Below are positions 1-21,924 of a stretch of 28,204 nt of DNA, piece after piece. The stretch is from a phage, in the NCBI GenBank assembly GCA_021454005.1, contig GCA_021454005.1_3939.2; one strand, given 5' to 3'. The notes under the pieces are model-generated. The model was not told the DNA's origin, did not search any database, and worked only from the letters and a program-made list of their open reading frames with translations. Every line of letters starts with the position of its first letter. The stretch's first letter is position 1. Made by a program: the position numbers and the translations under genes.

Positions 1-191
1 AATTGATGGTTACAACTAACGTTAACACAAAGGTAAAACGTTTTTACATGCAAATTTGTGGCGTATGGTCTAGAATATCAGAATCTGACTATTGCAACTA
101 TGTAGAAACAGCTATAAACTCTAATTGCTACCTTACAAGAAATACTAAGAATTTTACAAGGCAAACAGCGATTTACTATTACGATAAATAA
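1..191 (+). CDS. hypothetical protein, 3' portion (may start upstream of the window)
   Basis: ORF in frame 3 ending TAA 189-191, immediately followed by a type-A cassette; no recognisable motif. Confidence 0.35.
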   Translation, partial: LMVTTNVNTKVKRFYMQICGVWSRISESDYCNYVETAINSNCYLTRNTKNFTRQTAIYYYDK

Positions 192-197
192 AAGTAC

Positions 198-280
198 TTT
201 ACATGGGGCTTATAGTTCGATAAAGTAAGCCCCAGATAAAGAGCTTTACCAAATTAACCCTTAAACTAGGAGATTCAAAA
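198..280 (+). promoter_or_regulatory. type-A leader cassette: TTTACA-N17-TAAAGT promoter-like hexamers enclosing hairpin GGGGCTTA/TAAGCCCC, then conserved SD (TAAACTAGGAGATTC..AAAATG)
   Basis: -35-like TTTACA 198-203, -10-like TAAAGT 221-226, inverted repeat 205-233, GGAG about 9 nt before ATG 281. Confidence 0.55.
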
Positions 281-664
281 ATGGCATATCGTGCACCTAA
301 ATTCATCAACAAAGACAACTTTCGCAACGCACTGGAGAAGTCACTTGATGAAAATTTTAAAGGCAACATTATCGTTGTTCACGCATTCAATTTTAAGTAT
401 GATGTAAACGGGAATAGAATCAACCATTACACGGCAACCATGTTAGATGGTACACTTTCAAGTGAAAAAGCCGTACTAAATGCACTGGCAGGACGTGGAA
501 AGGTATTAGTAAGATGTGATAAGAGACGTTATCAGGGCGGTGCATATGGTTATGATGATGCTGTTTACCATCTTGAAAATATGGGCTATCAAGTAGAAAA
601 AGCTGGAGCATCACAAATCATCGGCAGCGATGGTTATGTAACTATCTTCAAAATTAACAAATAA
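281..664 (+). CDS. hypothetical protein (127 aa)
   Basis: ORF with ATG directly after the conserved GGAG leader. Confidence 0.65.
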   Translation: MAYRAPKFINKDNFRNALEKSLDENFKGNIIVVHAFNFKYDVNGNRINHYTATMLDGTLSSEKAVLNALAGRGKVLVRCDKRRYQGGAYGYDDAVYHLENMGYQVEKAGASQIIGSDGYVTIFKINK

Positions 665-750: not shown

Positions 751-1044
751 ATGGCTATTATCAAAAACGTTGTAATTACTGCAAAGACTCGTGATGACGC
801 TCGCGTTATGGCTAAAAAGTTATGCGGGAAAGTGGTTGACAATGGAAAACAATCTGCTGTAAGGTGGGGCGTGAAGGTTGATAAACAGTTGAAGTTAAAA
901 AATTCACCGATAAACCTTTTTACATGTGTAAACACTATCGGGAAGACAAATGTATACACGAAAAAGGCATACATTAGACGCGTAGCATTAACATCCCCCA
1001 TTCGTACAATGAGAAGTTATGCAAAGCTGAAAATTAACAAATAA
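751..1044 (+). CDS. hypothetical protein (97 aa)
   Basis: ATG at 751 preceded by GGAGAACTTAAAA; ORF-track start 736 lacks an SD. Confidence 0.6.
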   Translation: MAIIKNVVITAKTRDDARVMAKKLCGKVVDNGKQSAVRWGVKVDKQLKLKNSPINLFTCVNTIGKTNVYTKKAYIRRVALTSPIRTMRSYAKLKINK

Positions 1045-1049
1045 AGTAC

Positions 1050-1129
1050 TTTACAGGGGGCTTAAAAGCTGATACCTTAAGCCCCAGATAAAGAGCTTTA
1101 CCAATAAATCCTAAACTGGAGATTCAAAA
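1050..1129 (+). promoter_or_regulatory. type-A leader cassette, variant hairpin GGGGGCTTAA/TTAAGCCCC
   Basis: TTTACA 1050-1055; hairpin arms changed in a compensatory way. Confidence 0.5.
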
Positions 1130-1642
1130 ATGAAAACTGTAGACGCTACCTTTGAAGTTGTAAAAGAAAAATTCACTATTATTTATGAAGCTGTCAATTG
1201 CTTTGAAGCAAGCCATAATCTTGATAATTGGGAATTTACAGATGACCATCAAGGCGGTGTGACGATTAAAAATCCTAGCTGTCAGCGTAATGAATTTAAA
1301 TATGCAATCCCTTTACATTACAGCCTTAAACAGCTTTCAAGTGACTATGCAAAACAAGGCCGGGCAAATCCATCAAAAGAGGCTTACATCAGCTTACAGA
1401 AAGAACTAGAAAGAGATTTAGAGGCTTCAGAATATAACATTGCCGCGAAAGTTGTAGATGCAAATGGCAGCACTGTTTTAGAAAGTTTTTATATTGGTTA
1501 CGCTTTCGATTGGTGCTACAGTGACGGCGATGATTTAGAGGATAGACTAAAAGAAGAGGTGAACAACGCAGACGCAGAATCTGAAGTATTAGAACGTTTG
1601 GAATCGTTGAAAGACTCAGTGATGAATATCTTTAAGAACTAA
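1130..1642 (+). CDS. hypothetical acidic protein (170 aa)
   Basis: ORF after conserved leader; D/E-rich C-terminal half. Confidence 0.65.
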   Translation: MKTVDATFEVVKEKFTIIYEAVNCFEASHNLDNWEFTDDHQGGVTIKNPSCQRNEFKYAIPLHYSLKQLSSDYAKQGRANPSKEAYISLQKELERDLEASEYNIAAKVVDANGSTVLESFYIGYAFDWCYSDGDDLEDRLKEEVNNADAESEVLERLESLKDSVMNIFKN

Positions 1643-1651
1643 ATAGATTCC

Positions 1652-1734
1652 TTTACACGGGGTTATCAAGCTGGTAGGATAGCCCCAGATAAAGAGATTT
1701 ATCAAATAAAGCCCTTAAACTAGGAGATTCTAAA
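1652..1734 (+). promoter_or_regulatory. type-A leader cassette, variant hairpin GGGGTTATC/GATAGCCCC with -10-like TAGGAT at the conserved spacing
   Basis: TTTACA 1652-1657; hairpin arms co-vary relative to other copies. Confidence 0.5.
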
Positions 1735-2031
1735 ATGAAATTATCAAATAAAGTCCGTGAAAATTTAAGCAAGTTACTTAATAAAATTGATTTCATTGAA
1801 ACATCAAGAAATAGTCATGATGTTATGGAATGGTTACACGGAAAAATCAAAGGCCGTCGTGTAGTGATTTGCTTATGGAACAGTTGCAGGGAGTATAAAA
1901 AACCTGTATTGCAAGTCAATATTTATGATGATACTTTTAAAAGTCCTGTAAAATCTAAAAGCGATTTATTAGAATCCTATGAGATAACTGTAAATGGCAA
2001 AGTATCACGTAAAGAGGAAACACCATGTTAA
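1735..2031 (+). CDS. hypothetical protein (98 aa)
   Basis: ORF after conserved leader (GGAGATTCTAAAATG). Confidence 0.6.
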   Translation: MKLSNKVRENLSKLLNKIDFIETSRNSHDVMEWLHGKIKGRRVVICLWNSCREYKKPVLQVNIYDDTFKSPVKSKSDLLESYEITVNGKVSRKEETPC

Positions 2032-2357
2032 TGACTGGTATCACTGCAATCATTGCTATTTTCGCTCTATATAAGGCATATAAAGCCTATAATCTAGCAA
2101 ATAAGGCAACCACCCAGCAGGTTAGCAATAGCCTTGTAGAAAGCTTTCTAGGACGTTTAAGTGATGAGCAAATAAAGCGGCTAGAGATGAGCTTCAGATA
2201 TAAAGCGAAAACCTATCAGATAAGTGACATCTTCAAAGATAATTTTCAGTTAGTTGATGATTATAATTCTCTGATAAATGCTTTAAATGTCAGTGACTTA
2301 AAAGACTACTACGCTGTAATTGTTCAAGAATTGAGCAAACGAAAACAAAACTGTTGA
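2025..2357 (+). CDS. hypothetical small membrane protein (110 aa, N-terminal hydrophobic helix)
   Basis: ATG overlaps the upstream stop by 7 nt, GAGG upstream; N-terminus TGITAIIAIFALY is hydrophobic. Confidence 0.55.
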   Translation: MLMTGITAIIAIFALYKAYKAYNLANKATTQQVSNSLVESFLGRLSDEQIKRLEMSFRYKAKTYQISDIFKDNFQLVDDYNSLINALNVSDLKDYYAVIVQELSKRKQNC

Positions 2358-2446
2358 CACTGGTTTTTAGATAGATTAAATTACACATCAACGGGGAGGG
2401 AATGACCTTCCCCACTAAATAAAGTCCTAAACTGGAGATTCTGAAA
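2354..2446 (+). promoter_or_regulatory. type-B leader cassette: sigma70-like promoter TTGACA-N17-TAAATT, 5'UTR hairpin GGGGAGGG/CCTTCCCC, conserved SD
   Basis: TTGACA 2354-2359, TAAATT 2377-2382, G/C-rich inverted repeat, GGAG 9 nt before ATG 2447. Confidence 0.65.
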
Positions 2447-2605
2447 ATGTTTTGTGCAGGTGATAAAGTTGTCTGGAATGATATAGATGACGGTTTATGT
2501 ACGAAAGTTGTTGTTATCCTAGAAATTGATTATATCACTGGTGTTGCAACTGTAGCAGATAATGATATAATCTTTGATGTCTTAATTAGTGAACTGTCAA
2601 AATAA
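2447..2605 (+). CDS. hypothetical protein (52 aa; below the ORF-track size cutoff)
   Basis: ATG 2447 directly after conserved type-B leader; translated by hand to TAA 2603-2605. Confidence 0.5.
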   Translation: MFCAGDKVVWNDIDDGLCTKVVVILEIDYITGVATVADNDIIFDVLISELSK

Positions 2606-2630
2606 AACCCTTAAACTAGGAGCTTTTAAA

Positions 2631-2903
2631 ATGTACACTACTAACAATGGTCGCACCTTAAATGTCACCTTGCGTCACTATGTAGACGGTGTGATGTGCT
2701 TTGAAGATTTACGGGCTGAGCAACACATCTTAAATTGGCAAGTTGCAGGACTCCAAAAAACTGCTACAGGATACGGGAAAAAGATTCCAACCAGTTGGAA
2801 AGTATACTACGAAGGACGTTTACGCAGAATTTATCAAGATGTGCAAAGCAATAGCGCATCGAGTTACATTATAGTAAAAGGCAAAAAACTGCATTTAATG
2901 TAA
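2631..2903 (+). CDS. hypothetical protein (90 aa)
   Basis: ATG 2631 after CTTAAACTAGGAGCTTTTAAA; ORF-track start 2589 lacks an SD. Confidence 0.6.
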   Translation: MYTTNNGRTLNVTLRHYVDGVMCFEDLRAEQHILNWQVAGLQKTATGYGKKIPTSWKVYYEGRLRRIYQDVQSNSASSYIIVKGKKLHLM

Positions 2904-2908
2904 AGTAC

Positions 2909-2989
2909 TTTACAAGGGGCTTATAGTTCGATAAAGTAAGCCCCAGATAAAGAGCTTTACCACTAAATCCTAAATTGGAGAACTTAAAA
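2909..2989 (+). promoter_or_regulatory. type-A leader cassette (about 99% identical to 670-750)
   Basis: TTTACA 2909-2914; hairpin GGGGCTTA/TAAGCCCC. Confidence 0.55.
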
Positions 2990-3394
2990 ATGGCTATTAA
3001 TAACCGTGAATTATCAATTTTAAAAGCACGTTTGACCGTTAACCGGATTAATGTTATCACGTCATCAGCACCAGATGAAACACTGCAAAACATTATTGGG
3101 AAGATTCAAAGTGTTATCTTAGACGTTGAAAGCGTAAAAAACTCATTGACTGACGTTGCAGCAGGTATCACGCTAGACGGTGCACAACATGAAATGGCCG
3201 ACATGTTAGGCAAATCTAAGGTAATGAATAAAGAGTTAGATTTGAAAATGTTCCGATTTGCTGTTAAAGTGTGGTTATCTGTCGAGTATGATGCTAACTT
3301 TGCAATCGCTGACTTTTTCGCCACTTGGTTGCAGCGTAATTTGGCAAATCACGATTTCCGTAATATCTGCGATGCAATTTATGCAGAACTATAA
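2990..3394 (+). CDS. hypothetical protein (134 aa)
   Basis: ATG 2990 after conserved leader; ORF-track start 2975 lacks an SD. Confidence 0.6.
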   Translation: MAINNRELSILKARLTVNRINVITSSAPDETLQNIIGKIQSVILDVESVKNSLTDVAAGITLDGAQHEMADMLGKSKVMNKELDLKMFRFAVKVWLSVEYDANFAIADFFATWLQRNLANHDFRNICDAIYAEL

Positions 3395-3404
3395 AAAATT
3401 TTTG

Positions 3405-3497
3405 TTGACACTGGTTTTTAGATAGATTAAATTACACATCAACGGGGAGGGAATGACCTTCCCCACTAAATAAAGTCCTAAACTGGAGATTCTGAAA
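3405..3497 (+). promoter_or_regulatory. type-B leader cassette (100% identical to 2354-2446)
   Basis: TTGACA 3405-3410, TAAATT 3428-3433. Confidence 0.65.
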
Positions 3498-3701
3498 ATG
3501 GCTATTATTAATGGTTTAACCATTGAAACTACACACATCAAAGATATCAAAGTTGGTGATATAGTCCTTTCCCACGGCGTAGAAAAAACTGTCACTGCAA
3601 AGGATATCAAAGAGGATTCTTTCATGGGTAGGACTCTCTTCGGTGATTCTTATTGCTTAGGCTATCTTGCAGTTTTAAAAGTTGTCAAAAATAACAAATA
3701 A
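3498..3701 (+). CDS. hypothetical protein (67 aa)
   Basis: ORF after conserved leader. Confidence 0.55.
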   Translation: MAIINGLTIETTHIKDIKVGDIVLSHGVEKTVTAKDIKEDSFMGRTLFGDSYCLGYLAVLKVVKNNK

Positions 3702-3706
3702 AGTAC

Positions 3707-3787
3707 TTTACAAGGGGCTTAAAAGTTGATAACTTAAGCCTCAGATAAAGAGCTTTACCACTAAATCCTAAACTGGAGATTCTAAAA
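3707..3787 (+). promoter_or_regulatory. type-A leader cassette, variant hairpin GGGGCTTAA/TTAAGCCTC (G.U wobble)
   Basis: TTTACA 3707-3712; arms pair only with a G.U wobble. Confidence 0.5.
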
Positions 3788-4330
3788 ATGAAATGTTATC
3801 ACGGAACTACTCAAGAAAATTTCCTCAACCTGATTAATAACGGTGATAAACCATCAGGCGCATGGAATTGTTCGGATATGGACGGCAATTTTTACGTGTA
3901 TCCAGAAAATAAAATCTATGGCGACGATGATGAAGAGATAACATCGGAGGGCATTCAGCAAGCTCTAGGGAACGCCACTATTACGGCGGCCTTCCAGATG
4001 AAAACCCAAAATATTGTTATCTTAGAACTCGATATTCCAGATGATGAGCTAAATGATGATTATTCTTGTGATAATATGTCGAGTGTAGCAAGTTTTACAG
4101 AGTACTTTGATGTAAACTGGATTAAAAAGGTCTATACAACAGAGTTTAACGCTATGTATTCGCCTTTTTGTCTTCCTTCACTGGATAACCCAAATATGAA
4201 CTATCTTGATGAGACATTAGAACTACTTGCTAAAAGTGTTCAACAGTCGGACAGTATTCAGGTTTTTTGTGACATCATAGATACACTGACAGGAAACATT
4301 GCAGAAGAGGATTTAAAGAGCTTTTTCTAA
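3788..4330 (+). CDS. hypothetical strongly acidic protein (180 aa)
   Basis: ORF after conserved leader; runs of D/E (GDDDEE, DIPDDELNDDY). Confidence 0.65.
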   Translation: MKCYHGTTQENFLNLINNGDKPSGAWNCSDMDGNFYVYPENKIYGDDDEEITSEGIQQALGNATITAAFQMKTQNIVILELDIPDDELNDDYSCDNMSSVASFTEYFDVNWIKKVYTTEFNAMYSPFCLPSLDNPNMNYLDETLELLAKSVQQSDSIQVFCDIIDTLTGNIAEEDLKSFF

Positions 4331-4362
4331 AAACCTATGCAATCACCTTATAAACACTAATC

Positions 4363-4382
4363 AGCCCCTTGTAGGGGCTTTT
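4363..4382 (+). terminator. intrinsic terminator-like hairpin AGCCCCT-TGT-AGGGGCT followed by TTTT
   Basis: perfect 7-bp inverted repeat plus T-run, 33 nt after stop 4330. Confidence 0.55.
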
Positions 4383-4396
4383 AGAGGGCTTAAATC

Positions 4397-4630
4397 ATGC
4401 TTACAACCGTTTATCTCATCCTCTCAATTTGTAATGGTCATTCATGCGATTTTAAAGGGCTTGAAGAGTTTACAGGAAGTAAAGAAAATGCTATTCAAGT
4501 TTGCCAGATAGCAAGACAAGACTATCCCGCCAGTGATGATATACAATGTTACTTTAAGACAGAAGATGAAGACGGTATCTATTTTGACAGCGTAGATGGT
4601 CAGTATGAAATTATCATTGAAAAAGACTAG
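4397..4630 (+). CDS. hypothetical protein (77 aa)
   Basis: ORF with AGAGGG 7 nt upstream of ATG; lacks the conserved leader. Confidence 0.5.
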   Translation: MLTTVYLILSICNGHSCDFKGLEEFTGSKENAIQVCQIARQDYPASDDIQCYFKTEDEDGIYFDSVDGQYEIIIEKD

Positions 4631-4722
4631 ACAAGCCTGATAAAAATCTGTAAATTGTCAATCAACGGGGAGGGAACGACCTTACCCACTAAGTACAATC
4701 CTTAAACTAGGAGATTCAAAAA
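4628..4722 (+). promoter_or_regulatory. type-B leader cassette (TAGACA-N17-TAAATT, hairpin, SD)
   Basis: -35-like TAGACA 4628-4633 overlaps stop codon TAG of the upstream gene; TAAATT 4651-4656. Confidence 0.55.
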
Positions 4723-5064
4723 ATGGCTTATGTAACCGTAATTACCGATAAAGCTGGCGCATCTTGGTCAACTCAAGTAAGTGATAAGATGTCACCTATG
4801 CAGTGCCTAAAATACTTTGAACAGTGGAACAAAGGCGAGGACACAAGCCCCTTTCAAGTGATGCAGATTATCCATGTAGATAATGAAGGGAATAAAACGG
4901 TTTTAAATAGTGAGTACTACGCAAGCCGTTTTGAAACGAGAAGTAAAACAATGAAGCTTTTACGTGAATCCGGTTATGCCCATATCGCCGCGTTAATCTG
5001 GGATGACCTGCTAAAAAACCAACGTATCAGCTATGTAAAACCTGAAAAAATATTCATCAGTTAA
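4723..5064 (+). CDS. hypothetical protein (113 aa)
   Basis: ORF after conserved leader. Confidence 0.6.
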   Translation: MAYVTVITDKAGASWSTQVSDKMSPMQCLKYFEQWNKGEDTSPFQVMQIIHVDNEGNKTVLNSEYYASRFETRSKTMKLLRESGYAHIAALIWDDLLKNQRISYVKPEKIFIS

Positions 5065-5125: not shown

Positions 5126-5193
5126 TGTTCGAGGGGGTTTATCTAAAAGGGATTCACTTAAAAGATTCTTTATAGATAAGCTCAAAAAATTAC

Positions 5194-5284
5194 TTGCAAT
5201 CAACTATCAAAACAAGTAAATTACTAATCAACGGGAAGGCAATAACCTCCCCACTAAATAAAGTCCTAAACTGGAGATTCTAAA
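5194..5284 (+). promoter_or_regulatory. type-B leader cassette (TTGCAA-N17-TAAATT, hairpin, SD)
   Basis: TTGCAA 5194-5199, TAAATT 5217-5222. Confidence 0.55.
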
Positions 5285-5815
5285 ATGAACAAATTTCAAG
5301 CTATCAACTTCATTCGTTCAAATGCTGTAATGTCTAAGCCTGTAAAAGATACATACGAATTCCGTTGTAATGGGGTACATTTCGCAACAATCACCAAATC
5401 AGAAAACGGGGCTTATTACGTTCATCGTCGTAATGTTTCAACCGTTGTAGTCTCTCACTTTATGCAAGCTGTAGCGGAATTATTACCGTTATTCTTAGAG
5501 ATTTACTTAGATGAGTGTAAAAACGTTCACAACCACGTTAAAAGCCTTTTAAACGGTTATAAAATGGCTTATGAACGCTCTATCAAGTCCTTAAACAAGT
5601 TTTACAATGCACCTGCAAACACTGTTTCAATGGCTTATGATGTAAACGGTGAGTTAGTTAGTCTCTTTAAAGTGGAAGAAATTAAACTGTATAATCTACG
5701 TCCTAGTGGTTACTCTAAGACTCTTGGTGAAGGTTTAACGTTCAATATCAAGAACTTAGAAAAAACTTTAAAAGATATTGAAAAAGATATTGACGAGACA
5801 ATAAAAAGTCTGTAA
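5285..5815 (+). CDS. hypothetical protein (176 aa)
   Basis: ORF after conserved leader. Confidence 0.65.
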   Translation: MNKFQAINFIRSNAVMSKPVKDTYEFRCNGVHFATITKSENGAYYVHRRNVSTVVVSHFMQAVAELLPLFLEIYLDECKNVHNHVKSLLNGYKMAYERSIKSLNKFYNAPANTVSMAYDVNGELVSLFKVEEIKLYNLRPSGYSKTLGEGLTFNIKNLEKTLKDIEKDIDETIKSL

Positions 5816-5881
5816 ATTGTCAATCAACGGGGAGGGAATGACCTTCCCCACTAAATAAAGTCCTAAACTGGAGTTATCAAG
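5790..5881 (+). promoter_or_regulatory. type-B leader cassette (TTGACG-N17-TAAATT); -10 overlaps stop codon of the upstream gene
   Basis: TTGACG 5790-5795, TAAATT 5813-5818 (TAA 5813-5815 is the stop of CDS 5285-5815). Confidence 0.6.
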
Positions 5882-6145
5882 ATGGAAAACGTAGAATTAA
5901 CCACACTTTTACAAATTGCAACTGACAAAGAAGATGTAGCACTGTTTCACCGTATCGAAAGCGATTTATTCAATGGTGAAATCATCAAAGAATCTTATGA
6001 AGTTGTCGGATTCAAAGATGGTAAAGCGTTTGGCTTTTTTGACCTCGACAAAGGCAACGCTGTCACAAAGTATGATGTTGTATCTTGTGAGATTCTTACA
6101 AAATACAACGAAAAAAGGCTTGCAACATACGCCAATATGCAGTAA
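5882..6145 (+). CDS. hypothetical protein (87 aa)
   Basis: ORF after conserved leader. Confidence 0.55.
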   Translation: MENVELTTLLQIATDKEDVALFHRIESDLFNGEIIKESYEVVGFKDGKAFGFFDLDKGNAVTKYDVVSCEILTKYNEKRLATYANMQ

Positions 6146-6211
6146 ATTACTAATCAACGGGAGGTGATAACCTCCCCACTAAATAAAACCCTTAAACTAG
6201 GAGATTCTAAA
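6120..6211 (+). promoter_or_regulatory. type-B leader cassette (TTGCAA-N17-TAAATT, hairpin GGGAGG/CCTCCC, SD)
   Basis: TTGCAA 6120-6125, TAAATT 6143-6148 overlapping stop TAA 6143-6145. Confidence 0.55.
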
Positions 6212-6498: not shown

Positions 6499-6523
6499 AG
6501 CCCCTATTTAAAGGGGCTTTTTA
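6499..6523 (+). terminator. intrinsic terminator AGCCCCT-ATTTAA-AGGGGCT-TTTTT ending the plus-strand small-gene array
   Basis: 7-bp perfect inverted repeat followed by T5; preceded by a second hairpin GGGGCT-AAAT-AGCCCC at 6470-6485. Confidence 0.7.
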
Positions 6524-6892
6524 CGTCTATCGAATCCTTATACAATCTCTTTCCATCACCTTTCCAGAATCTTCCCACTGATTCGATAGAACCTATCTCA
6601 TACCTTAAAAGCAATAACTCTATAGTCTACGCTATAACCTCTTATCAAATCAACTTAAATATAAGCCCATAACCCGAAAGGGAAGGGCAACCGTTTAAAC
6701 GCTCTATAAAGCTCTATAACAGCCTTATCAACCTAACTTAAGGGATTGCATTAACTCACCCTTAAAAGCCCTTTATAAAGCTTCTCAGAGACTTAAAAGA
6801 ATCTTATAAGGGTGTAAGCTTTATTATCTCGTTAGCTATCTTGTGAACTACTAAACAAGCCCCTTGATAGTAACTGAAAAGTATGTTATAGG

Positions 6893-6933
6893 GGCTATAA
6901 AGTTACGTAAAAGAGGCTATAAAGTTACGTAAA
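6893..6933. repeat. tandem direct repeat GGCTATAAAGTTACGTAAA x2 (22-bp period)
   Basis: identical 19-mers at 6893-6911 and 6915-6933. Confidence 0.8.
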
Positions 6934-7324
6934 TGCTAGCCCCCTTAACATCCTTTTAACAATTTCTTAACAATCCCTACATAGTTATGCTTTTAAGGCA
7001 CTTGTTAGCAACTTGTTAGCCCCTTGTTAAATCTCTGTTAAGACCACGTAAAAGCCTTGTAAGAGTCTTTGACATAGCCTTAAAAGCTCCTGTAAAGCCC
7101 TATAAAGAGCTATCTGTACATTTGGGGTGTAACTACTAGGAAGAGACTTAAAAGGGGCTATAAAGAGCTATAGAGAGCTTTTAAGAGGTATGTTTAAAGA
7201 ATCACTAAGAGGGAAAGGGAACGATAAGAAAAGAAGTAGTGACCATGTTAATAGCTTGTTAAAAAGATTAAACACTTGTTAGAAACTTGTTAATTATCTT
7301 AACAAAATAACTCTTTAAAATTAA

Positions 7325-7478
7325 CTTGTTAGCTCTTGTTAGTCATCTGTTAAGATTCTGTAAAGCCTATTCAGCACTTGTTAAGAAACTGTTAAAGCCT
7401 TGTTAGTTCTGTTAAGAATCTGTTAAGACCTTTGAAGAGTTGTTAAGAAGATGTGAGAACTGTTAAGAGATTGTTAAG
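7325..7478. repeat. array of at least 12 direct iterons (C)TTGTTA(A)G / CTGTTAAG at about 10-12 bp spacing
   Basis: copies start at about 7325, 7335, 7347, 7358, 7377, 7389, 7399, 7410, 7420, 7439, 7460, 7471; more copies at 7001-7045 and 7258-7300, some inverted. Confidence 0.75.
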
Positions 7479-8092
7479 GATATTTTAAAATTTTGCAAAG
7501 GGGATGTTACAGGGATGTTAAGGGCTACCAAGCAGATATACATCCTAGACAGATATTTTTCAGTTCCTTCAAAAACCCTAAAAAATGACTTGATAGTCCT
7601 ATTTTATAAAAATTTTAAAATTCTGAATAATTACCTAGACAGCCTTTTAAAAATACAGGTAATAACAGGCTTATAAGATACCTTGTTAGTACCGTGTTAG
7701 ACCTTGTGAGATAAGGTCTGTGAAGATATTCCTGTTAAGTTTGTTAAAACAGTCTATATAGAGGCTTAGTAATACCTAGTGAACACCTATAGAGGGTATC
7801 ATAGCTGACATAGAGATTAAGAGGTGTATAGGAGCTTCTAAGAGGGTATAGAGAGATAGTTAAGGTGATTGTATAGGTTGTTAAGAAGGCTTGTTAGAAG
7901 AGTGTTTAGATGGCTATTTAGAAGGGCTATACAGAGGGCTATTAAGACCACTAGATAGTTACTAAGATACTATATAGTACTATATAACTATATAGAGAGT
8001 AAGATTAAGAAGGTTGTTAAGAAGGATAGATATTTTGTTCACATATGATGGTGACCCAGAGGTTGGGACAACCGATAAAATTTTATAAAAGT

Positions 8093-8117
8093 AAAAAGCC
8101 CCCAATTAAGGAGGCTC
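8093..8117 (-). terminator. intrinsic terminator for the minus-strand operon (AGCCTCC-TTAATT-GGGGGCT + T5 as read on the minus strand)
   Basis: inverted repeat 8098-8116 followed on the minus strand by a U-run (A-run 8093-8097 on plus), 11 nt past stop 8128. Confidence 0.55.
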
Positions 8118-8127
8118 TTAAGATATT

Positions 8128-16203: not shown

Positions 16204-17619
16204 ATGAGCGAATTATTTAAACATGCGCACCTTCATGCAGGTCGAACTGAAAATGGTGCTGTAAACCATACTTCATCAATGTCTGCTCTTGTAGACTTTT
16301 ACAAAGCTGCTGGTTCAAGCCGTAGCAACGTAGAAATCTTACCAGACCTGTTCTACAAAGCTTTGCGTGAGGATGTTGATGTTGCAGTTCGTATTTTGCT
16401 TCATATGCGAGATGTACGAGAAGGTATGGGTGAGCGTAAAGCCTTCAGAACTGTTTTACTTCAAGCGATTGAAGACAAAGTTTTAGAGCCTACGCAGGTT
16501 CTTCGCATTATGGATAAGATTGCAGAACTTGGTCGTTTTGATGACTTCAAAATCTTCGTAGGTACTCGTTTCGAGACAGATGCCTTCAAACATCTAGAAG
16601 CAGCATTACTAGACCCTGCAACAGCAGGTTTGGCGGCTAAGTGGTTACCACGAGTCAAACCACGTCATAAGCAGTTTGTAAAACGTTTCTGCAAGTTTGC
16701 CAACTTGAGTGAGAAAGAGTACCGCACACTGTTGTCTGCACTATCTGATACAGTTGAGCAAAAAATCTCTGCTAATGAGTTTGGTAAGATTGACTACAGT
16801 AAGATTCCTTCACTTGCTGCTGCACGTTACCAAAAACTGTTTAACCGCAAAGATGGAGAACGCTACAAAGCTTACATCGAGTCCTTATCAAAGGGTGAGG
16901 CTAAGATTAATGCTGGTGCTGTTTACCCATACGATGTAATTAAATCTGTTAAGCATGGTAATGCAGATGTTGCTAATGAGCAGTGGAAAGCACTACCAAA
17001 CTGGATGGCAGAGGGTGAAAACATCTTGTGTATGTCTGATGTTTCAAGCTCAATGTCTTGGGTGAATTTTGGTTCAATTACTGCTCTTGATATTGGTGTT
17101 TCACTTGCATTGTATGTAGCAGAACGTAATACAGGTTGCTTTAAGAATGAGTTGATGGTTTATTCAACAAACCCTCACTTCATCGAACTGAGTGGTGATT
17201 TACGAAACCGTCATCGTCAGGTGATGCGACACGTTGAATATGGCTCAACTAACTTACAAGCAGCTTTTGACCGTATTCTTGAAACAGGTAAAAGAAACAA
17301 CTTGACTCAGAAAGATATGCCAAGTAAGCTTATCATCTTCTCCGATATGGAGTTCAATCAGGTTGATGGAGCTAACGGTCGTACAAACTTTGAAGCAATT
17401 CGTAGTAAGTACAAAAAAGCTGGATACGAAATGCCTCAACTGGTATTCTGGTACTTAGCAAACCGTAATGGTACTTGCGAAGTATCTGTTAAGGATAACG
17501 GTGTGGCAATGGTATCTGGTTTTTCTCCAGCTACTTTAAAAGCTCTGCTTGGTGGTGAGAAGTTTGACCCAATCAGCGTAATGCTCAAAGCAGTAATGAT
17601 TGACCGTTATATCTGGTAA
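16204..17619 (+). CDS. vWA-domain protein (MIDAS motif D-x-S-x-S) with N-terminal region resembling DUF2828/TROVE-like proteins
   Basis: 471-aa ORF; DVSSSMS (MIDAS-like) at about residue 280 and downstream IIFSDMEF; N-terminal TENGA...SALVDFY...R..DVREGMGER pattern recalled from DUF2828-type proteins. Confidence 0.7.
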   Translation: MSELFKHAHLHAGRTENGAVNHTSSMSALVDFYKAAGSSRSNVEILPDLFYKALREDVDVAVRILLHMRDVREGMGERKAFRTVLLQAIEDKVLEPTQVLRIMDKIAELGRFDDFKIFVGTRFETDAFKHLEAALLDPATAGLAAKWLPRVKPRHKQFVKRFCKFANLSEKEYRTLLSALSDTVEQKISANEFGKIDYSKIPSLAAARYQKLFNRKDGERYKAYIESLSKGEAKINAGAVYPYDVIKSVKHGNADVANEQWKALPNWMAEGENILCMSDVSSSMSWVNFGSITALDIGVSLALYVAERNTGCFKNELMVYSTNPHFIELSGDLRNRHRQVMRHVEYGSTNLQAAFDRILETGKRNNLTQKDMPSKLIIFSDMEFNQVDGANGRTNFEAIRSKYKKAGYEMPQLVFWYLANRNGTCEVSVKDNGVAMVSGFSPATLKALLGGEKFDPISVMLKAVMIDRYIW

Positions 17620-17784: not shown

Positions 17785-17861
17785 CTCTGTTTAGCTCAGC
17801 TTGGTAGAGCGTTCCGTTTGGGGCGGTAAGGCCGGAGGTTCAAGTCCTCCAACAGAGACCA
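17785..17861 (+). tRNA. tRNA-Pro (anticodon TGG)
   Basis: hand-folded cloverleaf: acceptor CTCTGTT/AACAGAG, anticodon loop TTTGGGG, T arm GGAGG-TTCAAGT-CCTCC, CCA encoded. Confidence 0.7.
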
Positions 17862-17868
17862 AATTAAT

Positions 17869-17946
17869 GTTCCAGTAGACAAAATGGTAAAGTCACCACT
17901 CTTTCAAAGTGGATATCTGAGGGTTCAAATCCCTTCTGGAACGCCA
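17869..17946 (+). tRNA. tRNA-Glu (anticodon TTC)
   Basis: acceptor GTTCCAG/CTGGAAC, anticodon stem CCACT/AGTGG, loop CTTTCAA, T-loop TTCAAAT, CCA encoded. Confidence 0.75.
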
Positions 17947-17953
17947 GTTTTGA

Positions 17954-18025
17954 CAGAAGACCAATTACAGCAAGCTTAATCTACTCATCTGACACGAAAT
18001 CGGACAAAGAAGATATTTGGTCTGG
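17954..18025 (+). ncRNA. spacer element copy 1: CAGAAGACCAA..TACAGCAAG...TTGGTCTGG (terminal 7-bp stem AGACCAA/TTGGTCT)
   Basis: conserved ends and covarying stem shared with copies at 18120, 18507, 18594. Confidence 0.5.
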
Positions 18026-18036
18026 TCATTGAGAAT

Positions 18037-18113
18037 TGCGGGTATAGAGAAAGGGCGTCTCACATGTCTCATTAGCATGGTATCGGCAGGTTCGACTCCT
18101 GCACCCGCCTCCA
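18037..18113 (+). tRNA. tRNA-Met (anticodon CAT)
   Basis: acceptor (T)GCGGGT/ACCCGC(C) with one unpaired position, anticodon stem CATGT/GCATG, loop CTCATTA, T arm GCAGG-TTCGACT-CCTGC, CCA encoded. Confidence 0.6.
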
Positions 18114-18119
18114 ATTTTG

Positions 18120-18179
18120 CAGAAGACCGTATTCAGCAACAAAATACTTTTTGCGGATAAAAGAAAAAACACGGTCTGG
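18120..18179 (+). ncRNA. spacer element copy 2: CAGAAGACCGT..TTCAGCAAC...ACGGTCTGG (stem AGACCGT/ACGGTCT)
   Basis: same architecture as copy 1 with a compensatory change in the stem. Confidence 0.5.
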
Positions 18180-18190
18180 CAATGTATTAA

Positions 18191-18267
18191 GGTTAGGAAG
18201 CACATAAGGTATGTGCGGTCGCCTGTTAAGCGAATGGCACAGGGTTCGAATCCCTGACTAACCGCCA
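18191..18267 (+). tRNA. tRNA-Asn (anticodon GTT)
   Basis: acceptor GGTTAGG/ACTAACC (one mismatch at 7-66), D stem GCAC/GTGC, loop CTGTTAA, T arm CAGGG-TTCGAAT-CCCTG, CCA encoded. Confidence 0.65.
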
Positions 18268-18275
18268 AATTAAAT

Positions 18276-18363
18276 GTGTCGTTATCCCGTAGATGGTAGC
18301 GGTGGGGACTGTAAATCCCTTGTCATTGAGACTCGGTAGGTTCGACTCCTACACGGCACACCA
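18276..18363 (+). tRNA. tRNA-Tyr (anticodon GTA), long variable arm
   Basis: acceptor GTGTCGT/ACGGCAC, loop CTGTAAA, variable stem GTC-ATTGA-GAC, T arm GTAGG-TTCGACT-CCTAC, CCA encoded. Confidence 0.7.
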
Positions 18364-18368
18364 ATAAA

Positions 18369-18445
18369 GGCTATGTAGTTTAACTGGAGAAAATACTCCC
18401 CTGTCACGGGAGATGATGTGAGTTCAAGTCTCATCGTAGCCGCCA
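18369..18445 (+). tRNA. tRNA-Asp (anticodon GTC)
   Basis: acceptor GGCTATG/CGTAGCC, anticodon stem CTCCC/GGGAG, loop CTGTCAC, T-loop TTCAAGT, CCA encoded. Confidence 0.75.
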
Positions 18446-18506
18446 ATTTTGAGAGGGCTATTTAGCCCCTCCCTTAAAGAGTTCTTACGAGTATTCTTTA
18501 AAGGAG

Positions 18507-18580
18507 CAGAAGACCAAATACAGCAAGAATGTATGAAATTTCAAGCCAATTTAATTTTGAAAATTTAAAACTTGGTCTGG
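18507..18580 (+). ncRNA. spacer element copy 3: CAGAAGACCAA..TACAGCAAG...TTGGTCTGG
   Basis: same architecture; stem AGACCAA/TTGGTCT. Confidence 0.5.
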
Positions 18581-18593
18581 CTCAACAAATTTA

Positions 18594-18725
18594 CAGAAGA
18601 CCGTTTACAGCAAAACTTAAACAATCTATTTCTCCGGTAAAGAAAAGGCGAAGGTTCGATTCCTTCACTCGGCAGATGTCGAGTTGGTGTAATGGTAGCA
18701 CTTAAGATGATAAACAACGGTCTGG
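18594..18725 (+). ncRNA. spacer element copy 4 (long form) with terminal stem AGACCGTT/AACGGTCT, containing tRNA-half-like hairpins
   Basis: CAGAAGACCGTTTACAGCAAA at the 5' end and AACGGTCTGG at the 3' end; interior carries a T-arm-like hairpin, an acceptor-like hairpin and a D-arm-like hairpin. Confidence 0.45.
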
Positions 18726-18726
18726 T

Positions 18727-18870
18727 AATTATCTTTGTAGATAAGTTATTAAGCTTACATGTGAGTATGCGACCACAAAGGGTGAAAGGGTAAATTCTAG
18801 ATTTAAACCCAAAAAGGCACATCGCTACAGACCTTAAGCAAGTCTGGGTAGCTTATCTACAAAGATAATT
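18727..18870. repeat. 19-bp perfect inverted repeat (AATTATCTTTGTAGATAAG / CTTATCTACAAAGATAATT) flanking 106 nt
   Basis: arms at 18727-18745 and 18852-18870; could be a long-stem RNA or a miniature inverted-repeat element. Confidence 0.6.
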
Positions 18871-18874
18871 TAAT

Positions 18875-18950
18875 GGAAGTGTAGCAGAATGGTGATGCGG
18901 CAGACTTTTAATCTGACAGGCGATGGGTTCGAATCCCTCCACTTCTACCA
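18875..18950 (+). tRNA. tRNA-Lys (anticodon TTT)
   Basis: acceptor GGAAGTG/CACTTCT (G1.U72), loop CTTTTAA, T-loop TTCGAAT, CCA encoded; close paralog of the tRNA at 20101. Confidence 0.65.
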
Positions 18951-18954
18951 ATAT

Positions 18955-19031
18955 GGTTCAGTCGCAGATAAGGTAATGCAAGGGTCTCATAAGCCCTATG
19001 AATGTGGGTTCGATTCCCATCTGAACCTCCA
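18955..19031 (+). tRNA. tRNA with anticodon CAT (Met, initiator, or Ile2/lysidine type)
   Basis: acceptor GGTTCAG/CTGAACC, anticodon stem AGGGT/GCCCT (three G-C pairs), loop CTCATAA, T arm GTGGG-TTCGATT-CCCAT, CCA encoded. Confidence 0.65.
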
Positions 19032-19032
19032 A

Positions 19033-19108
19033 GCTGGTATAGTTAAGAAGGTTATAACACTCCCCTGATAAGGGAACATCGGTGGTTCGATTCCACCTAC
19101 CAGTACCA
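19033..19108 (+). tRNA. tRNA-Ile (anticodon GAT)
   Basis: acceptor GCTGGTA/TACCAGT, D stem GTTA/TAAC, loop CTGATAA, T arm GGTGG-TTCGATT-CCACC, CCA encoded. Confidence 0.7.
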
Positions 19109-19123
19109 ATTTCAATAAAGTTG

Positions 19124-19152
19124 TTGACATTGAGATGTGACTACTTTATAGT
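19124..19152 (+). promoter_or_regulatory. sigma70-like promoter TTGACA-N17-TATAGT inside the tRNA array
   Basis: hexamers at 19124-19129 and 19147-19152; about 200 nt of unassigned sequence follows before the next tRNA. Confidence 0.6.
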
Positions 19153-19355
19153 AACCTTAGTTTTCGTTGCGTAGCGTCTATTTTGCAAATTTAAAATAAA
19201 TGCAAACGACAATGTTTTTCTGGCAGTAGCTTGATAGGCTAAACACCAGTGAGGTCTTCCAATCCCTCATCAAAGAATTTGGCGTACTAGCCCACGGTAT
19301 GATTAATAAGGTGGGCATCTTTAAGGGCTTTCTAAGAGAGTCTTTAAAGATTAAT

Positions 19356-19432
19356 GCACCCTTAGTTCAATTGGATAGAGCAACGGTCTTCTAAATCGTT
19401 AGTTACAGGTTCGAATCCTGTAGGGTGTGCCA
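19356..19432 (+). tRNA. tRNA-Arg (anticodon TCT)
   Basis: acceptor GCACCCT/AGGGTGT, D arm GTTC-AATTGGATA-GAGC, anticodon stem ACGGT/ATCGT, loop CTTCTAA, T arm ACAGG-TTCGAAT-CCTGT, CCA encoded. Confidence 0.75.
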
Positions 19433-19450
19433 ATTAGTTAGCAGATTACT

Positions 19451-19490
19451 TAGACGACCTAAGCGGGTCTTCCTGTAGGGAGGTGGTCTG
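19451..19490 (+). ncRNA. possible degenerate fifth copy of the AGACC...GGTCTG spacer element
   Basis: TAGACGACC...GGTGGTCTG with 6 of 7 stem positions pairing; weaker match. Confidence 0.25.
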
Positions 19491-19574
19491 TATCTCATGT
19501 TTTCCAGAACATGTAAATAATCTGAGAAGGGGCTTTACAGTGTTGAGATAATACGGTAAGCTTCGAATTACAGT

Positions 19575-19657
19575 ATGGGACGATGTTAAGACTCTAAGGC
19601 ATGAGCAACGGCCTCCAAAACCGTTTCAAAGGGGTTCAACTCCTCCGTCCCATGCCA
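19575..19657 (+). tRNA. tRNA-Trp (anticodon CCA), atypical (about 7 extra nt between acceptor stem and D arm)
   Basis: acceptor ATGGGAC/GTCCCAT (7 of 7), anticodon stem ACGGC/ACCGT with loop CTCCAAA, T arm AGGGG-TTCAACT-CCTCC, CCA encoded; D region does not fold canonically by hand. Confidence 0.5.
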
Positions 19658-19670
19658 AAGTCTTATTAGG

Positions 19671-19758
19671 GGTAGGTAGCGGCTAATGGTAGCCAAACTG
19701 TCTTGAAAACAGTTGCCACTGTAGAGATACGGTGAGGGTTCGACTCCTTTACTTACCG
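19671..19758 (+). tRNA. tRNA-Ser (anticodon TGA), long variable arm
   Basis: acceptor GGTAGGT/ACTTACC, anticodon stem ACTGT/ACAGT, loop CTTGAAA, long variable arm, T-loop TTCGACT; CCA not fully encoded. Confidence 0.7.
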
Positions 19759-19914
19759 CCTAATAAGATTTACACCGTCCATGCTTGCTCGCATTTTCGG
19801 TTTATCCCTCGTGTATTGTCGTACACTGATAAAGCACCTAGTAGGTGTCACGGAGAAGAGATAATATCAAGCTCTCCAAAGGTTCTAGTCACCGGATTAA
19901 ACAAGACTATGCAA

Positions 19915-19935
19915 AGACCTATTTAGGTCTTTTTA
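19915..19935 (+). terminator. intrinsic terminator AGACCT-ATTT-AGGTCT-TTTTT within the tRNA array
   Basis: perfect 6-bp inverted repeat plus T5. Confidence 0.6.
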
Positions 19936-20014
19936 GAGGGCTTCTAAGGTTATTAGTCGCTTGTTGTGGAACCTTGTTGCTCAGGTTCTTAGAAGTTCTC
20001 TAAAAAGATTTAAT

Positions 20015-20093
20015 GGGAGATTGACGGCAACTTGGTAGACCTATCTCGCTTAGAACGAGATGCTTGAGGGTTCGAATCCCTTGTCTCCTACCA
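20015..20093 (+). tRNA. tRNA with anticodon TAG (Leu by the standard code) but a short variable arm
   Basis: acceptor GGGAGAT/GTCTCCT, anticodon stem (A)TCTCG/CGAGA(T), loop CTTAGAA, variable region about 4 nt, T arm GAGGG-TTCGAAT-CCCTT, A73, CCA encoded. Confidence 0.55.
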
Positions 20094-20100
20094 AATTAAT

Positions 20101-20176
20101 GCAGGTGTAGCAAAATGGTTATGCGGCTGACTCTTAATCAGTAAGACGATGGGTTCAATTCCCTCCACCTGTACCA
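20101..20176 (+). tRNA. tRNA-Lys (anticodon CTT)
   Basis: acceptor GCAGGTG/CACCTGT, anticodon stem GCTGA/TCAGT, loop CTCTTAA, T-loop TTCAATT, CCA encoded. Confidence 0.65.
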
Positions 20177-20182
20177 GACATT

Positions 20183-20258
20183 GGGGATGTAGTTTACATG
20201 GTTAAAACATAAGTTTTGCAAACTTAAGTACAGGGTTCAATTCCCTGCTTCTCCACCA
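20183..20258 (+). tRNA. tRNA-Ala (anticodon TGC)
   Basis: acceptor GGGGATG/CTTCTCC with a G3.U70 pair (Ala identity element), D stem GTTT/AAAC, anticodon stem TAAGT/ACTTA, loop TTTGCAA, CCA encoded. Confidence 0.75.
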
Positions 20259-20264
20259 ATTAGT

Positions 20265-20339
20265 GCATCCATAGTTTAAACGGGAAAATTACAGTCTTCC
20301 AAACTGAGGTTGAGGGTTCGATTCCCTCTGGATGCTCCA
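20265..20339 (+). tRNA. tRNA-Gly (anticodon TCC)
   Basis: acceptor GCATCCA/TGGATGC, loop CTTCCAA, T arm GAGGG-TTCGATT-CCCTC, CCA encoded. Confidence 0.7.
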
Positions 20340-20346
20340 AATTAAT

Positions 20347-20422
20347 GCTCCTATCGTATAATTGGCTATTACGGTTGCCTTGTAAGCAACTTATCAGGGT
20401 TCGAATCCTTGTGGGAGCACCA
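20347..20422 (+). tRNA. tRNA-Thr (anticodon TGT)
   Basis: acceptor GCTCCTA/TGGGAGC, anticodon stem GTTGC/GCAAC, loop CTTGTAA, T-loop TTCGAAT, CCA encoded. Confidence 0.75.
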
Positions 20423-20517
20423 ATTCAGAGGTCAAGTGAAAGACCGCTGGTGTCAACTGAAGACCGTAACAAATTCCACGGAGTTGAGTTAGCGGCACAA
20501 CTTCAGACCTCTTTCAT

Positions 20518-20592
20518 GCTCGCTTAGTTTATATGGTAAAACATCACCCTTACAAGATGAAGAAAAAGGTTCAAGTCCTTTAGTGAGTACCA
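20518..20592 (+). tRNA. tRNA-Val (anticodon TAC)
   Basis: acceptor GCTCGCT/AGTGAGT (two G.U pairs), D stem GTTT/AAAC, loop CTTACAA, T arm AAAGG-TTCAAGT-CCTTT, CCA encoded. Confidence 0.65.
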
Positions 20593-20593
20593 T

Positions 20594-20671
20594 GTTCCAG
20601 TATCCCAATTGGCAGAGGATGCAAGCTCAAACCTTGTATTAGTGACGGTTCGAATCCGTCTTGGAACACCA
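20594..20671 (+). tRNA. tRNA with anticodon CAA (Leu by the standard code) but a short variable arm
   Basis: acceptor GTTCCAG/TTGGAAC, D arm ATCC-CAATTGGCAGA-GGAT, anticodon stem GCAAG/CTTGT, loop CTCAAAC, variable region about 6 nt, T arm GACGG-TTCGAAT-CCGTC, A73, CCA encoded. Confidence 0.55.
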
Positions 20672-20676
20672 ATTTT

Positions 20677-20752: not shown

Positions 20753-20769
20753 GATAAAAAGGTGATACT

Positions 20770-21566: not shown

Positions 21567-21574
21567 AGATTTAA

Positions 21575-21650: not shown

Positions 21651-21652
21651 AT

Positions 21653-21731: not shown

Positions 21732-21736
21732 AATTT

Positions 21737-21919: not shown

Positions 21920-21924
21920 ATTTA

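What the first reader, a model, noticed from the sequence alone, without database searches (positions are those of the whole stretch)
1130..4330. Strongly acidic small proteins in the early array (candidate DNA mimics or anti-defence proteins)
CDS 3788-4330 (180 aa) contains dense D/E runs (GDDDEE, DIPDDELNDDYSCD, EEDLKSFF), and CDS 1130-1642 (170 aa) has an acidic C-terminal half. Small acidic proteins expressed from strong early promoters in phages are often DNA mimics or inhibitors of host nucleases or restriction systems. This is a hypothesis from composition and context only.
Basis: inference. Interest (0 to 1): 0.45.

Follow-up and report, generated by a model that had tools for sequence, protein, structure and literature searches.

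The report
Acidic phage protein is an ADP-ribosyltransferase fold
One of the two acidic small proteins in this FelixO1-like phage is not a DNA look-alike: it belongs to a large, unnamed family of phage proteins with the fold of NAD-using ADP-ribosyltransferase enzymes, while the other protein remains of unknown function.

Summary
The window is a Felixounavirus genome segment, about 92% identical to phages finno and KEP1. Both ORFs are real, conserved and acidic. CDS 3788-4330 has pI 4.05 and net charge -24. CDS 1130-1642 has pI 4.54 and net charge -15.

A profile search finds at least 409 clusters of stand-alone proteins of about 180-200 aa, all unannotated and uniformly acidic (median pI 4.26). 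They share an N-terminal H-G-T-[TS] motif, an invariant Tyr 31 residues later, and an invariant D-x-S-C-x-N-M loop. Homologues occur in Ounavirinae, Pakpunavirus and ~137-kb Vibrio phages, always as solo genes within arrays of small genes.

Best reading: an early-expressed NAD+-dependent mono-ADP-ribosyltransferase acting on a host or defence target. The fold is well supported. Activity and target are inferred.

The parts
3788..4330 (+). Gene for a 180-aa, strongly acidic, stand-alone ART-fold protein (phrog_3303; bas63_0107 in phage Bas63)
3800..3811 (+). Motif 1: H5-G6-T7-T8 on predicted strand beta1, the NAD-binding hallmark of H-type ARTs
   Evidence: H in 143/146, G in 138/146 and T in 125/146 family members. 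This is the only segment that aligns by sequence to E. coli KptA 'LYHGT', to Runella Tpt1 and to Pfam PARP positions 50-75.
3890..3904 (+). Motif 2 candidate: F35-Y36-V37-Y38-P39 on predicted strand beta2. Y36 is invariant and residue 38 is always aromatic
   Evidence: Y36 in 145/146; position 38 is W, Y or H; strand E35-39. The H-to-Y spacing of 31 residues compares with 33-34 in diphtheria toxin and PARP1 (those spacings are from memory, so this is inference).
3863..3874 (+). W26-N-C28-S29: second conserved block, with W26 invariant and S29 in 141/146
   Evidence: Its role is unknown. It may be a counterpart of the [H/S]-x-[S/T] element of other ART clades (inference).
4031..4078 (+). Acidic run plus family signature loop (residues 82-97) with invariant D91-x-S93-C94-x-N96-M97, between predicted strands 74-82 and 101-103
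   Evidence: D91 146/146, S93 146/146, C94 133/146, N96 130/146, M97 143/146. Residues 92-96 are the only segment with pLDDT below 50.
3920..3937 (+). Acidic run G45-DDDEE50 at the N-terminus of the long helix 48-70. This stretch is conserved as acidic across the family
   Evidence: Columns 46 and 49 are at least 66% D/E. Positions 45-50 are mostly D/E.
4121..4147 (+). Predicted strand 112-120 (IKKVYTTEF), a candidate for beta5. E119 is a possible third catalytic residue in this phage but is D/E in only 42% of the family
   Evidence: Assigning it as beta5 is inference from strand order only.
3699..3787 (+). Repeated upstream cassette (D1 copy): TTTACA -35-like box, GGGGCTTA...TAAGCCTC hairpin and GGAG SD
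   Evidence: Five copies in the window, 74-100% identical. The promoter scan picks up the sibling copies.
1130..1642 (+). Gene for a 170-aa acidic protein of unknown fold (phrog_4190; Felix01p032 and bas63_0101 homologue)
1042..1129 (+). Repeated upstream cassette (D1 copy) in front of the 170-aa gene

Best explanation
CDS 3788-4330 encodes a minimal, stand-alone enzyme of the ADP-ribosyltransferase (ART) superfamily. The protein starts directly with strand beta1 carrying H-G-T-T, which binds the nicotinamide end of NAD+. Strand beta2 carries the invariant Tyr36. The third triad position is not fixed, as in mono-ART PARPs and Tpt1. A family-specific invariant loop, D91-x-S-C-x-N-M, sits next to conserved acidic patches. 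A C-terminal helical extension (residues 122-180) follows the roughly 120-residue catalytic core. The gene is probably transcribed from its own promoter-like cassette soon after infection. I infer that the protein uses host NAD+ to mono-ADP-ribosylate a host or defence macromolecule. Because the enzyme is so acidic (net -24), that target is more likely a basic, nucleic-acid-binding protein than DNA or RNA itself. This would parallel T4 Alt/ModA/ModB (host takeover) or AcrIF11 (defence inactivation). What is shown: the fold, the motif conservation, the family breadth and the solo-gene context. What is inferred: NAD+ binding, catalysis, early timing and the nature of the target. CDS 1130-1642 is a separate, unrelated conserved acidic protein. 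Its function cannot be assigned and it is not part of this mechanism.
Confidence: 0.5

Rival explanations
1. The protein is a catalytically inactive ART-fold protein that only binds NAD+ or an ADP-ribose-derived molecule. It might act as a sponge for immune signals such as Thoeris-type ADPR derivatives, or as a stoichiometric inhibitor or pseudo-enzyme that occupies a host partner.
For: The NAD-binding motif 1 and Tyr36 are invariant, while the classical catalytic acid on beta5 is not conserved. The protein is small and solo and sits in an accessory-type gene array. The carrier phages invest in NAD+/ADPR metabolism through NARP1.
Against: ARTs without the third acidic residue are known to be active, for example Tpt1 with H-H-h, TreTu with an atypical triad, and PARPs lacking the third residue (PMC9825190). 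An invariant Asp/Ser/Cys/Asn loop looks more like chemistry than passive binding. No similarity was found to known sponges, although none was searched for specifically.
Confidence: 0.2
2. The protein is a nucleic-acid-directed ART. It would be either an RNA 2'-phosphotransferase-like repair enzyme (Tpt1/KptA-like, working with the phage's polynucleotide kinase, phosphatase and 26 tRNAs) or a DarT-like DNA ADP-ribosyltransferase.
Against: The protein begins at the H-G-T motif, so it lacks Tpt1's N-terminal RNA-binding lobe, which carries most of the catalytic Arg-His-Arg-Arg tetrad (the tetrad is from memory; the lack of any N-terminal extension is shown). hhalign against KptA aligns only 19 columns. 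A net charge of -24 with only 4.4% K+R is unfavourable for binding polyanions.
Confidence: 0.1
3. This is the first reader's hypothesis: one or both proteins are Ocr/ArdA-type DNA mimics that block restriction enzymes or other DNA-binding defence proteins through surface carboxylates alone.
Confidence: 0.05

Closest known systems
AcrIF11 (anti-CRISPR ADP-ribosyltransferase of phages and plasmids)
   Different: There is no detectable sequence similarity and the structural score is weak. The signature loop D-x-S-C-x-N-M and the C-terminal helical extension are not known from AcrIF11. No link to CRISPR was tested.
Tpt1/KptA RNA 2'-phosphotransferase (H-H-h clade), NAD+ lobe
   Different: The phage protein lacks the N-terminal RNA lobe. 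The second triad residue is Tyr rather than His. The protein is strongly acidic. Only 19 columns align by profile.
Minimal toxin ARTs TreTu/TreX (Rhs effectors) and CT/LT/pertussis-type toxins (R-S-E clade)
   Different: Those enzymes carry Arg on beta1 where this family has an invariant His. They also come with immunity proteins or secretion and delivery domains, whereas this gene has no conserved neighbour.
T4 Alt, ModA, ModB (phage host-takeover ARTs)
   Same: They are phage-encoded ARTs deployed at the start of infection to modify host proteins (PMC9503650).
   Different: They belong to the R-S-E clade. Alt is packaged in the virion and is much larger. No similarity was found by any search here.
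'p0068-like' H-Y-[EDQ] ART family of enterophages (Aravind group survey)
   Same: It is described as one of the most frequent viral ART families, found in Escherichia, Shigella and Salmonella phages (PMC9503650). This host range matches the Ounavirinae members of the present family.
   Different: In some of those phages that family is reported as paired with a Dmd-domain antitoxin. I found no Dmd-like or otherwise conserved neighbour. The paper's accession lists were not available, so identity with this family is unresolved.
Ocr (T7 gp0.3) and ArdA DNA mimics
   Same: They are small, very acidic, early-expressed or early-transferred proteins of mobile elements.
   Different: Their fold is different and no sequence or structure match was found. 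The invariant residues in the present family are mostly non-acidic.

Membership tests
ADP-ribosyltransferase (ART) superfamily | Split beta-sheet ART fold | tested here: met
ADP-ribosyltransferase (ART) superfamily | Triad position 1: His or Arg on beta1, within h-h-H-G-[ST] | tested here: met
   H5-G6-T7 lies on predicted strand 2-8 and is present in 143, 138 and 125 of 146 members. It aligns to KptA, Tpt1 and PARP motif 1.
ADP-ribosyltransferase (ART) superfamily | Triad position 2: Tyr, His or Ser on beta2 | tested here: inconclusive
   Y36 is invariant (145/146) and lies on predicted strand 35-39, 31 residues after H5. Equivalence to the catalytic Tyr could not be verified without coordinates or a residue-level superposition.
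ADP-ribosyltransferase (ART) superfamily | Triad position 3: Glu, Asp or Gln (or a hydrophobic residue in H-H-h and mono-ART PARPs) on beta5 | tested here: inconclusive
   No invariant acid lies on predicted strand 112-120; E119 is D/E in 42%. The invariant D91 lies in a loop. This is compatible with an H-Y-hydrophobic or an H-Y-D arrangement.
ADP-ribosyltransferase (ART) superfamily | Binds NAD+ and transfers ADP-ribose | not testable with these tools
   This needs biochemistry.
Tpt1/KptA | Two-lobe architecture with an N-terminal RNA-binding lobe carrying catalytic Arg and His residues | tested here: not met
   The protein starts at motif 1, with H at residue 4-11 in 134/146 members. hhalign aligns only residues 1-19 to KptA 101-119.
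Ocr (T7 gp0.3) DNA mimic | Ocr sequence family and all-helical elongated DNA-shaped dimer | tested here: not met
ArdA DNA mimic | ArdA sequence family and three-domain curved acidic structure | tested here: not met
T4 Alt/ModA/ModB (R-S-E phage ARTs) | Arg on beta1, S-T-S on beta2 and E-x-E on beta5 | tested here: not met
   Beta1 carries an invariant His. There is no STS or ExE motif in register.
ART toxin with antitoxin or immunity partner (DarTG, Tre/Tri, p0068-Dmd type) | A conserved adjacent partner gene | tested here: not met
   All-against-all BLASTP of ORFs within 4 kb in five independent lineages finds only the ART-like gene shared. Neighbours show no Dmd, macro or other hit. Remote homology of partners is not excluded.

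The most novel reading that the evidence does not exclude
This family would be a previously unnamed, widespread class of hyper-acidic 'mimic-enzymes'. The conserved carboxylate patches would steer the ART onto the positively charged nucleic-acid-binding surfaces of host or defence proteins such as restriction, CRISPR, nucleoid or RNA polymerase components. The ART would then inactivate those surfaces covalently by ADP-ribosylation, using the invariant D-x-S-C-x-N-M loop in a non-canonical catalytic arrangement. The phage's NARP1 pathway would replenish the NAD+ consumed.
Probability: 0.15. Interest if true: 0.8.

Novelty: new variant of a known kind. Interest (0 to 1): 0.55.

Why it matters
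Felixounaviruses and Pakpunaviruses are among the most used Salmonella, E. coli and Pseudomonas therapy and biocontrol phages, yet this conserved gene is annotated 'hypothetical' in all 376 cultured genomes that carry it. Recognising it as an ART-fold protein turns an anonymous acidic ORF into a directly testable enzyme hypothesis, through NAD+ labelling and knock-outs in Bas63. It adds a large family of at least 409 clusters, with an unusual conserved loop, to the set of phage NAD+-utilising effectors. It may also explain why these phages carry NAD+ reconstitution genes. It further shows that acidity alone is a poor predictor of DNA mimicry.

Tried and rejected
- **Curated libraries.** Pfam, PHROGs, NCBIfam and PADLOC scans of both proteins and of distant relatives gave no informative hit. 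PHROGs returned only 'unknown function' families.
- **PDB sequence searches.** phmmer and profile searches gave nothing significant; the only suggestive hit was a Tpt1 motif-1 match at E 1.4.
- **hhalign against E. coli KptA.** The family profile aligned over only 19 columns, probability 1.8%.
- **Pfam PARP hits.** They cover motif 1 only.
- **Other loci.** Two single distant proteins found nothing in viral contigs. tblastn against plasmids found no match.
- **Fold libraries.** afdb50 was not available. BFVD gave only unnamed proteins and one DarT.
- **Dmd or antitoxin partner.** Neighbours gave no Dmd or other hit and no neighbour is conserved across lineages.
- **The 'p0068' ART family.** Its identity with this family could not be checked, because supplements were not held and the 2015 review was not held.
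- **Expression timing.** A literature search for Felixounavirus transcriptomes found none.
- **NAD salvage genes in the window.** I first guessed that the large ORFs at 23.4-26.5 kb were NAD salvage genes. This was rejected: they are terminase and portal.
Full report
**Where the window comes from.** Bases 1000-4700 match 249 phage records. The best are Escherichia phages KEP1 and finno at about 92% identity, and the matching records are Felixounavirus and related Ounavirinae that infect Escherichia, Salmonella, Shigella and Citrobacter. In phage finno all eleven genes under the match are 'hypothetical protein'. The rest of the window holds 26 tRNA genes, terminase, portal, an Ig-domain protein and a DUF2828/DUF7788 protein. 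In the BASEL phage Bas63 (JohannRWettstein) the two genes of the finding are bas63_0101 and bas63_0107.

**Checking the observation.** Both ORFs are present with ATG starts behind GGAG ribosome-binding sites, and the quoted acidic strings are there.
- The 180-aa protein (3788-4330) has D+E 17.8%, K+R 4.4%, net charge -24 and pI 4.05. It is the most acidic of the 56 ORFs of at least 60 aa in the window.
- The 170-aa protein (1130-1642) has net charge -15 and pI 4.54. The charge is concentrated in residues 91-150.
- Acidity is a conserved property in both families.
- Each gene follows a copy of a 99-nt repeated cassette that contains a TTTACA box, a GGGGCTTA/TAAGCCCC hairpin and the SD. There are five copies of this cassette, and a second cassette type precedes the other small genes.

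The composition and the 'array' description are therefore confirmed. 'Early' and 'strong promoter' remain inference, because I found no Felixounavirus expression data.

**What the 180-aa protein is.** No curated library recognises it. Pfam, NCBIfam and PADLOC give nothing, and PHROGs places it in phrog_3303, 'unknown function'. Close homologues (42-89% identity) come only from FelixO1-like phages.

Their alignment showed an N-terminal C-[YF]-H-G-T-T, then F-Y-V-Y-P, then I-L-E-L-D-I-P. This reminded me of H-type ADP-ribosyltransferases, so I tested that idea by structure. AF2 on the alignment gave a confident model: pLDDT 84, pTM 0.81, and only residues 92-96 below 50.

No Ocr or ArdA structure appears. 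The published description of TreTu names Tpt1 and CNFy as its closest structural relatives (PMC9825190). That is the same neighbourhood found here.

**Family breadth and conserved sites.** A profile search of 1.84 billion representatives found 409 clusters with E of 0.001 or lower, and 200 with E of 1e-10 or lower. Nearly all are stand-alone proteins of 170-215 aa.

In an alignment of 146 of them the following residues are conserved:

| Residue | Count out of 146 |
|---|---|
| H5 | 143 |
| G6 | 138 |
| T7 | 125 |
| W26 | 146 |
| S29 | 141 |
| Y36 | 145 |
| D91 | 146 |
| S93 | 146 |
| C94 | 133 |
| N96 | 130 |
| M97 | 143 |

Residue 38 is always aromatic (W, Y or H), and A59 and A63 are each present in 120 of 146.

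The H-G-T motif lies within the first 4-11 residues in 134 of 146 members, so the proteins begin with strand beta1 and have no N-terminal domain.

The only parts that align by sequence to known ARTs are these first ~20 residues. They match Pfam PARP positions 50-75 (4 of 60 members, below threshold), Runella Tpt1 and E. coli KptA 'LYHGT' at the start of its NAD+ lobe.

A canonical Glu on the predicted fifth strand is not conserved. E119 is D/E in 42% of the family, E80 is Glu in 53%, and position 82 is D/E in 77%. The triad may therefore be H-Y-hydrophobic, as in mono-ART PARPs and akin to Tpt1's H-H-h. Alternatively, the invariant D91 may supply the acid. I could not settle this without coordinates.

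The family is uniformly acidic. Median pI is 4.26 over the 150 best representatives, and median net charge is -21 in the 146-sequence alignment, with acidic columns clustered at 45-50 and 82-95.

**Distribution and context.** tblastn finds the gene in 376 cultured phage records: Felixounavirus, Mooglevirus, Suspvirus, Erwinia phiEa21-4-like phages, Pectobacterium Arno18, ~137-kb Vibrio phages and about 80 Pseudomonas Pakpunavirus genomes. It is 'hypothetical' everywhere. None was found in plasmids.

In Pakpunavirus, in Vibrio phage F88 and in four metagenomic contigs, it again sits in long arrays of small co-directional genes. In the metagenomic loci these arrays include SprT-like, methyltransferase, DUF932, NUDIX and MPTase-PolyVal genes.

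An all-against-all comparison of ORFs within 4 kb shows that only the ART-like gene itself is shared between lineages. It is therefore a solo gene with no conserved immunity or antitoxin partner.

Sampled genomes from the cultured lineages that carry it also encode a Nampt/Namat-type enzyme. Bas63, VpaE1_ev035 and ITTPL appear in both hit lists, and Mooglevirus, Erwinia and Vibrio relatives also carry one. In Bas63 that gene is part of the NARP1 NAD+ reconstitution pathway (10.1101/2024.02.11.579819), and Pakpunavirus has the same pathway plus a macro-domain protein (PMC12846349). Because Nampt-like genes occur in 1,936 phage records and these phages are related to one another, this is only weak support for an NAD+-linked role.

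**Most likely mechanism.** The fold, the invariant NAD-binding motif, the invariant Tyr and the invariant polar loop together argue for a ligand-binding, probably catalytic, site rather than a charge-only surface. I therefore favour an NAD+-dependent mono-ADP-ribosyltransferase made soon after infection that modifies a host or defence macromolecule (confidence 0.5).

The extreme negative charge makes a basic protein target more likely than nucleic acid; this is inference. The closest functional analogues are AcrIF11 and T4 Alt/Mod, but the protein is not a member of either family. It is not a Tpt1 orthologue because it lacks the N-lobe. It is not an R-S-E enzyme because beta1 carries His.

The rivals are:
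- an inactive NAD+/ADPR-ligand binder or pseudo-enzyme (0.2)
- a nucleic-acid-directed ART (0.1)
- the original DNA-mimic idea (0.05)

The remainder is left unassigned.

A survey by the Aravind group mentions a frequent 'p0068-like' H-Y-[EDQ] ART family in Escherichia, Shigella and Salmonella phages, which in some of those phages is paired with a Dmd-domain antitoxin (PMC9503650). I could not verify whether that is this family. No Dmd-like neighbour was found here and the accession lists were unavailable. If it is the same family, the fold assignment is not new, although it has not reached any annotation resource I could query.

**The 170-aa protein.** It belongs to phrog_4190 ('unknown function'). 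Homologues occur in Ounavirinae (67-92% identity in the aligned set) and, at 36-47%, in Vequintavirinae such as PVP-SE1 gp200, whose annotation cites Felix01p032.

The best conserved block, WE[FL]TDxHQGGVT[VI]KN...RNx[FY]KY[AG]IPLxYSL at residues 34-66, is not acidic, and it is exactly the part that cannot be modelled. The acidic C-terminal helices are the least conserved part in distant homologues, which are nevertheless acidic overall (pI 4.1-4.3).

No evidence supports or excludes mimicry, and the function is unknown. Its phyletic distribution only partly overlaps that of the ART-like gene, so the two are not a functional pair by co-occurrence.

**Verdict.** The interesting object is the 180-aa gene. 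It represents an unannotated, widespread, uniformly acidic family of minimal ART-fold proteins in virulent myoviruses, with a non-canonical conserved loop. It is a new variant of a known kind and is directly testable in Bas63.

Noticed in passing
window 190-288, 662-760, 1042-1140, 2901-2999, 3699-3797; and 2352-2449, 3403-3500, 4626-4723, 5191-5288, 5788-5885, 6141-6198: Two families of ~98-nt repeated intergenic cassettes precede almost every small gene of the + strand array. Each has a sigma70-like -35/-10 pair, a G+C-rich hairpin and an SD. Two copies (2352-2449 and 3403-3500) are 100% identical. They resemble the promoter-early stem-loop (PeSL) shuffling cassettes of T4-type phages (from memory).
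   Followed up: partly
window 6987-7485 (within the gene-free gap ~6520-8120): Dense arrays of CTTGTTA(A/G)-type motifs at 11-nt and 31-nt spacing lie where gene polarity and GC skew switch. Phage finno annotates 'repeat_region' features in the equivalent gap. This may be an origin or a regulator-binding array.
   Followed up: no
window 4397-4630 (+): A third very acidic small protein (77 aa, pI 4.08, net -11, several Cys) lies immediately downstream of the ART-like gene. It belongs to phrog_4640, unknown function. It is not conserved next to the ART-like gene in other lineages.
   Followed up: partly
window 17785-22927: A cluster of 26 tRNA genes is interspersed with DUF7338 and DUF7217 proteins.
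   Followed up: no
window 16204-17619 (+): A 471-aa protein with DUF2828 and DUF7788 domains sits directly upstream of the tRNA cluster.
   Followed up: no
window 1229-1327 (residues 34-66 of the 170-aa protein): The most conserved block of the 170-aa family, shared with Vequintavirinae homologues, is exactly the region AF2 cannot model (pLDDT below 50). It may fold only on a partner or ligand.
   Followed up: partly
L010 2746-5454 (Bas63 genes 79-80), about 13 kb upstream of the ART-like gene on the same strand: The NARP1 NAD+ reconstitution operon (Adps and Namat) lies in the same rightward gene block as the ART-like gene in Bas63. Nampt/Namat-type genes are present in sampled genomes of the cultured lineages that carry the ART-like family.
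   Followed up: partly
L002, L003, L005, L006 (metagenomic contigs with distant family members): Distant homologues sit in long arrays of small genes together with SprT-like, GP88, methyltransferase, DUF932, NUDIX and MPTase-PolyVal genes. This repertoire is typical of counter-defence or accessory regions of large phages or conjugative elements.
   Followed up: partly
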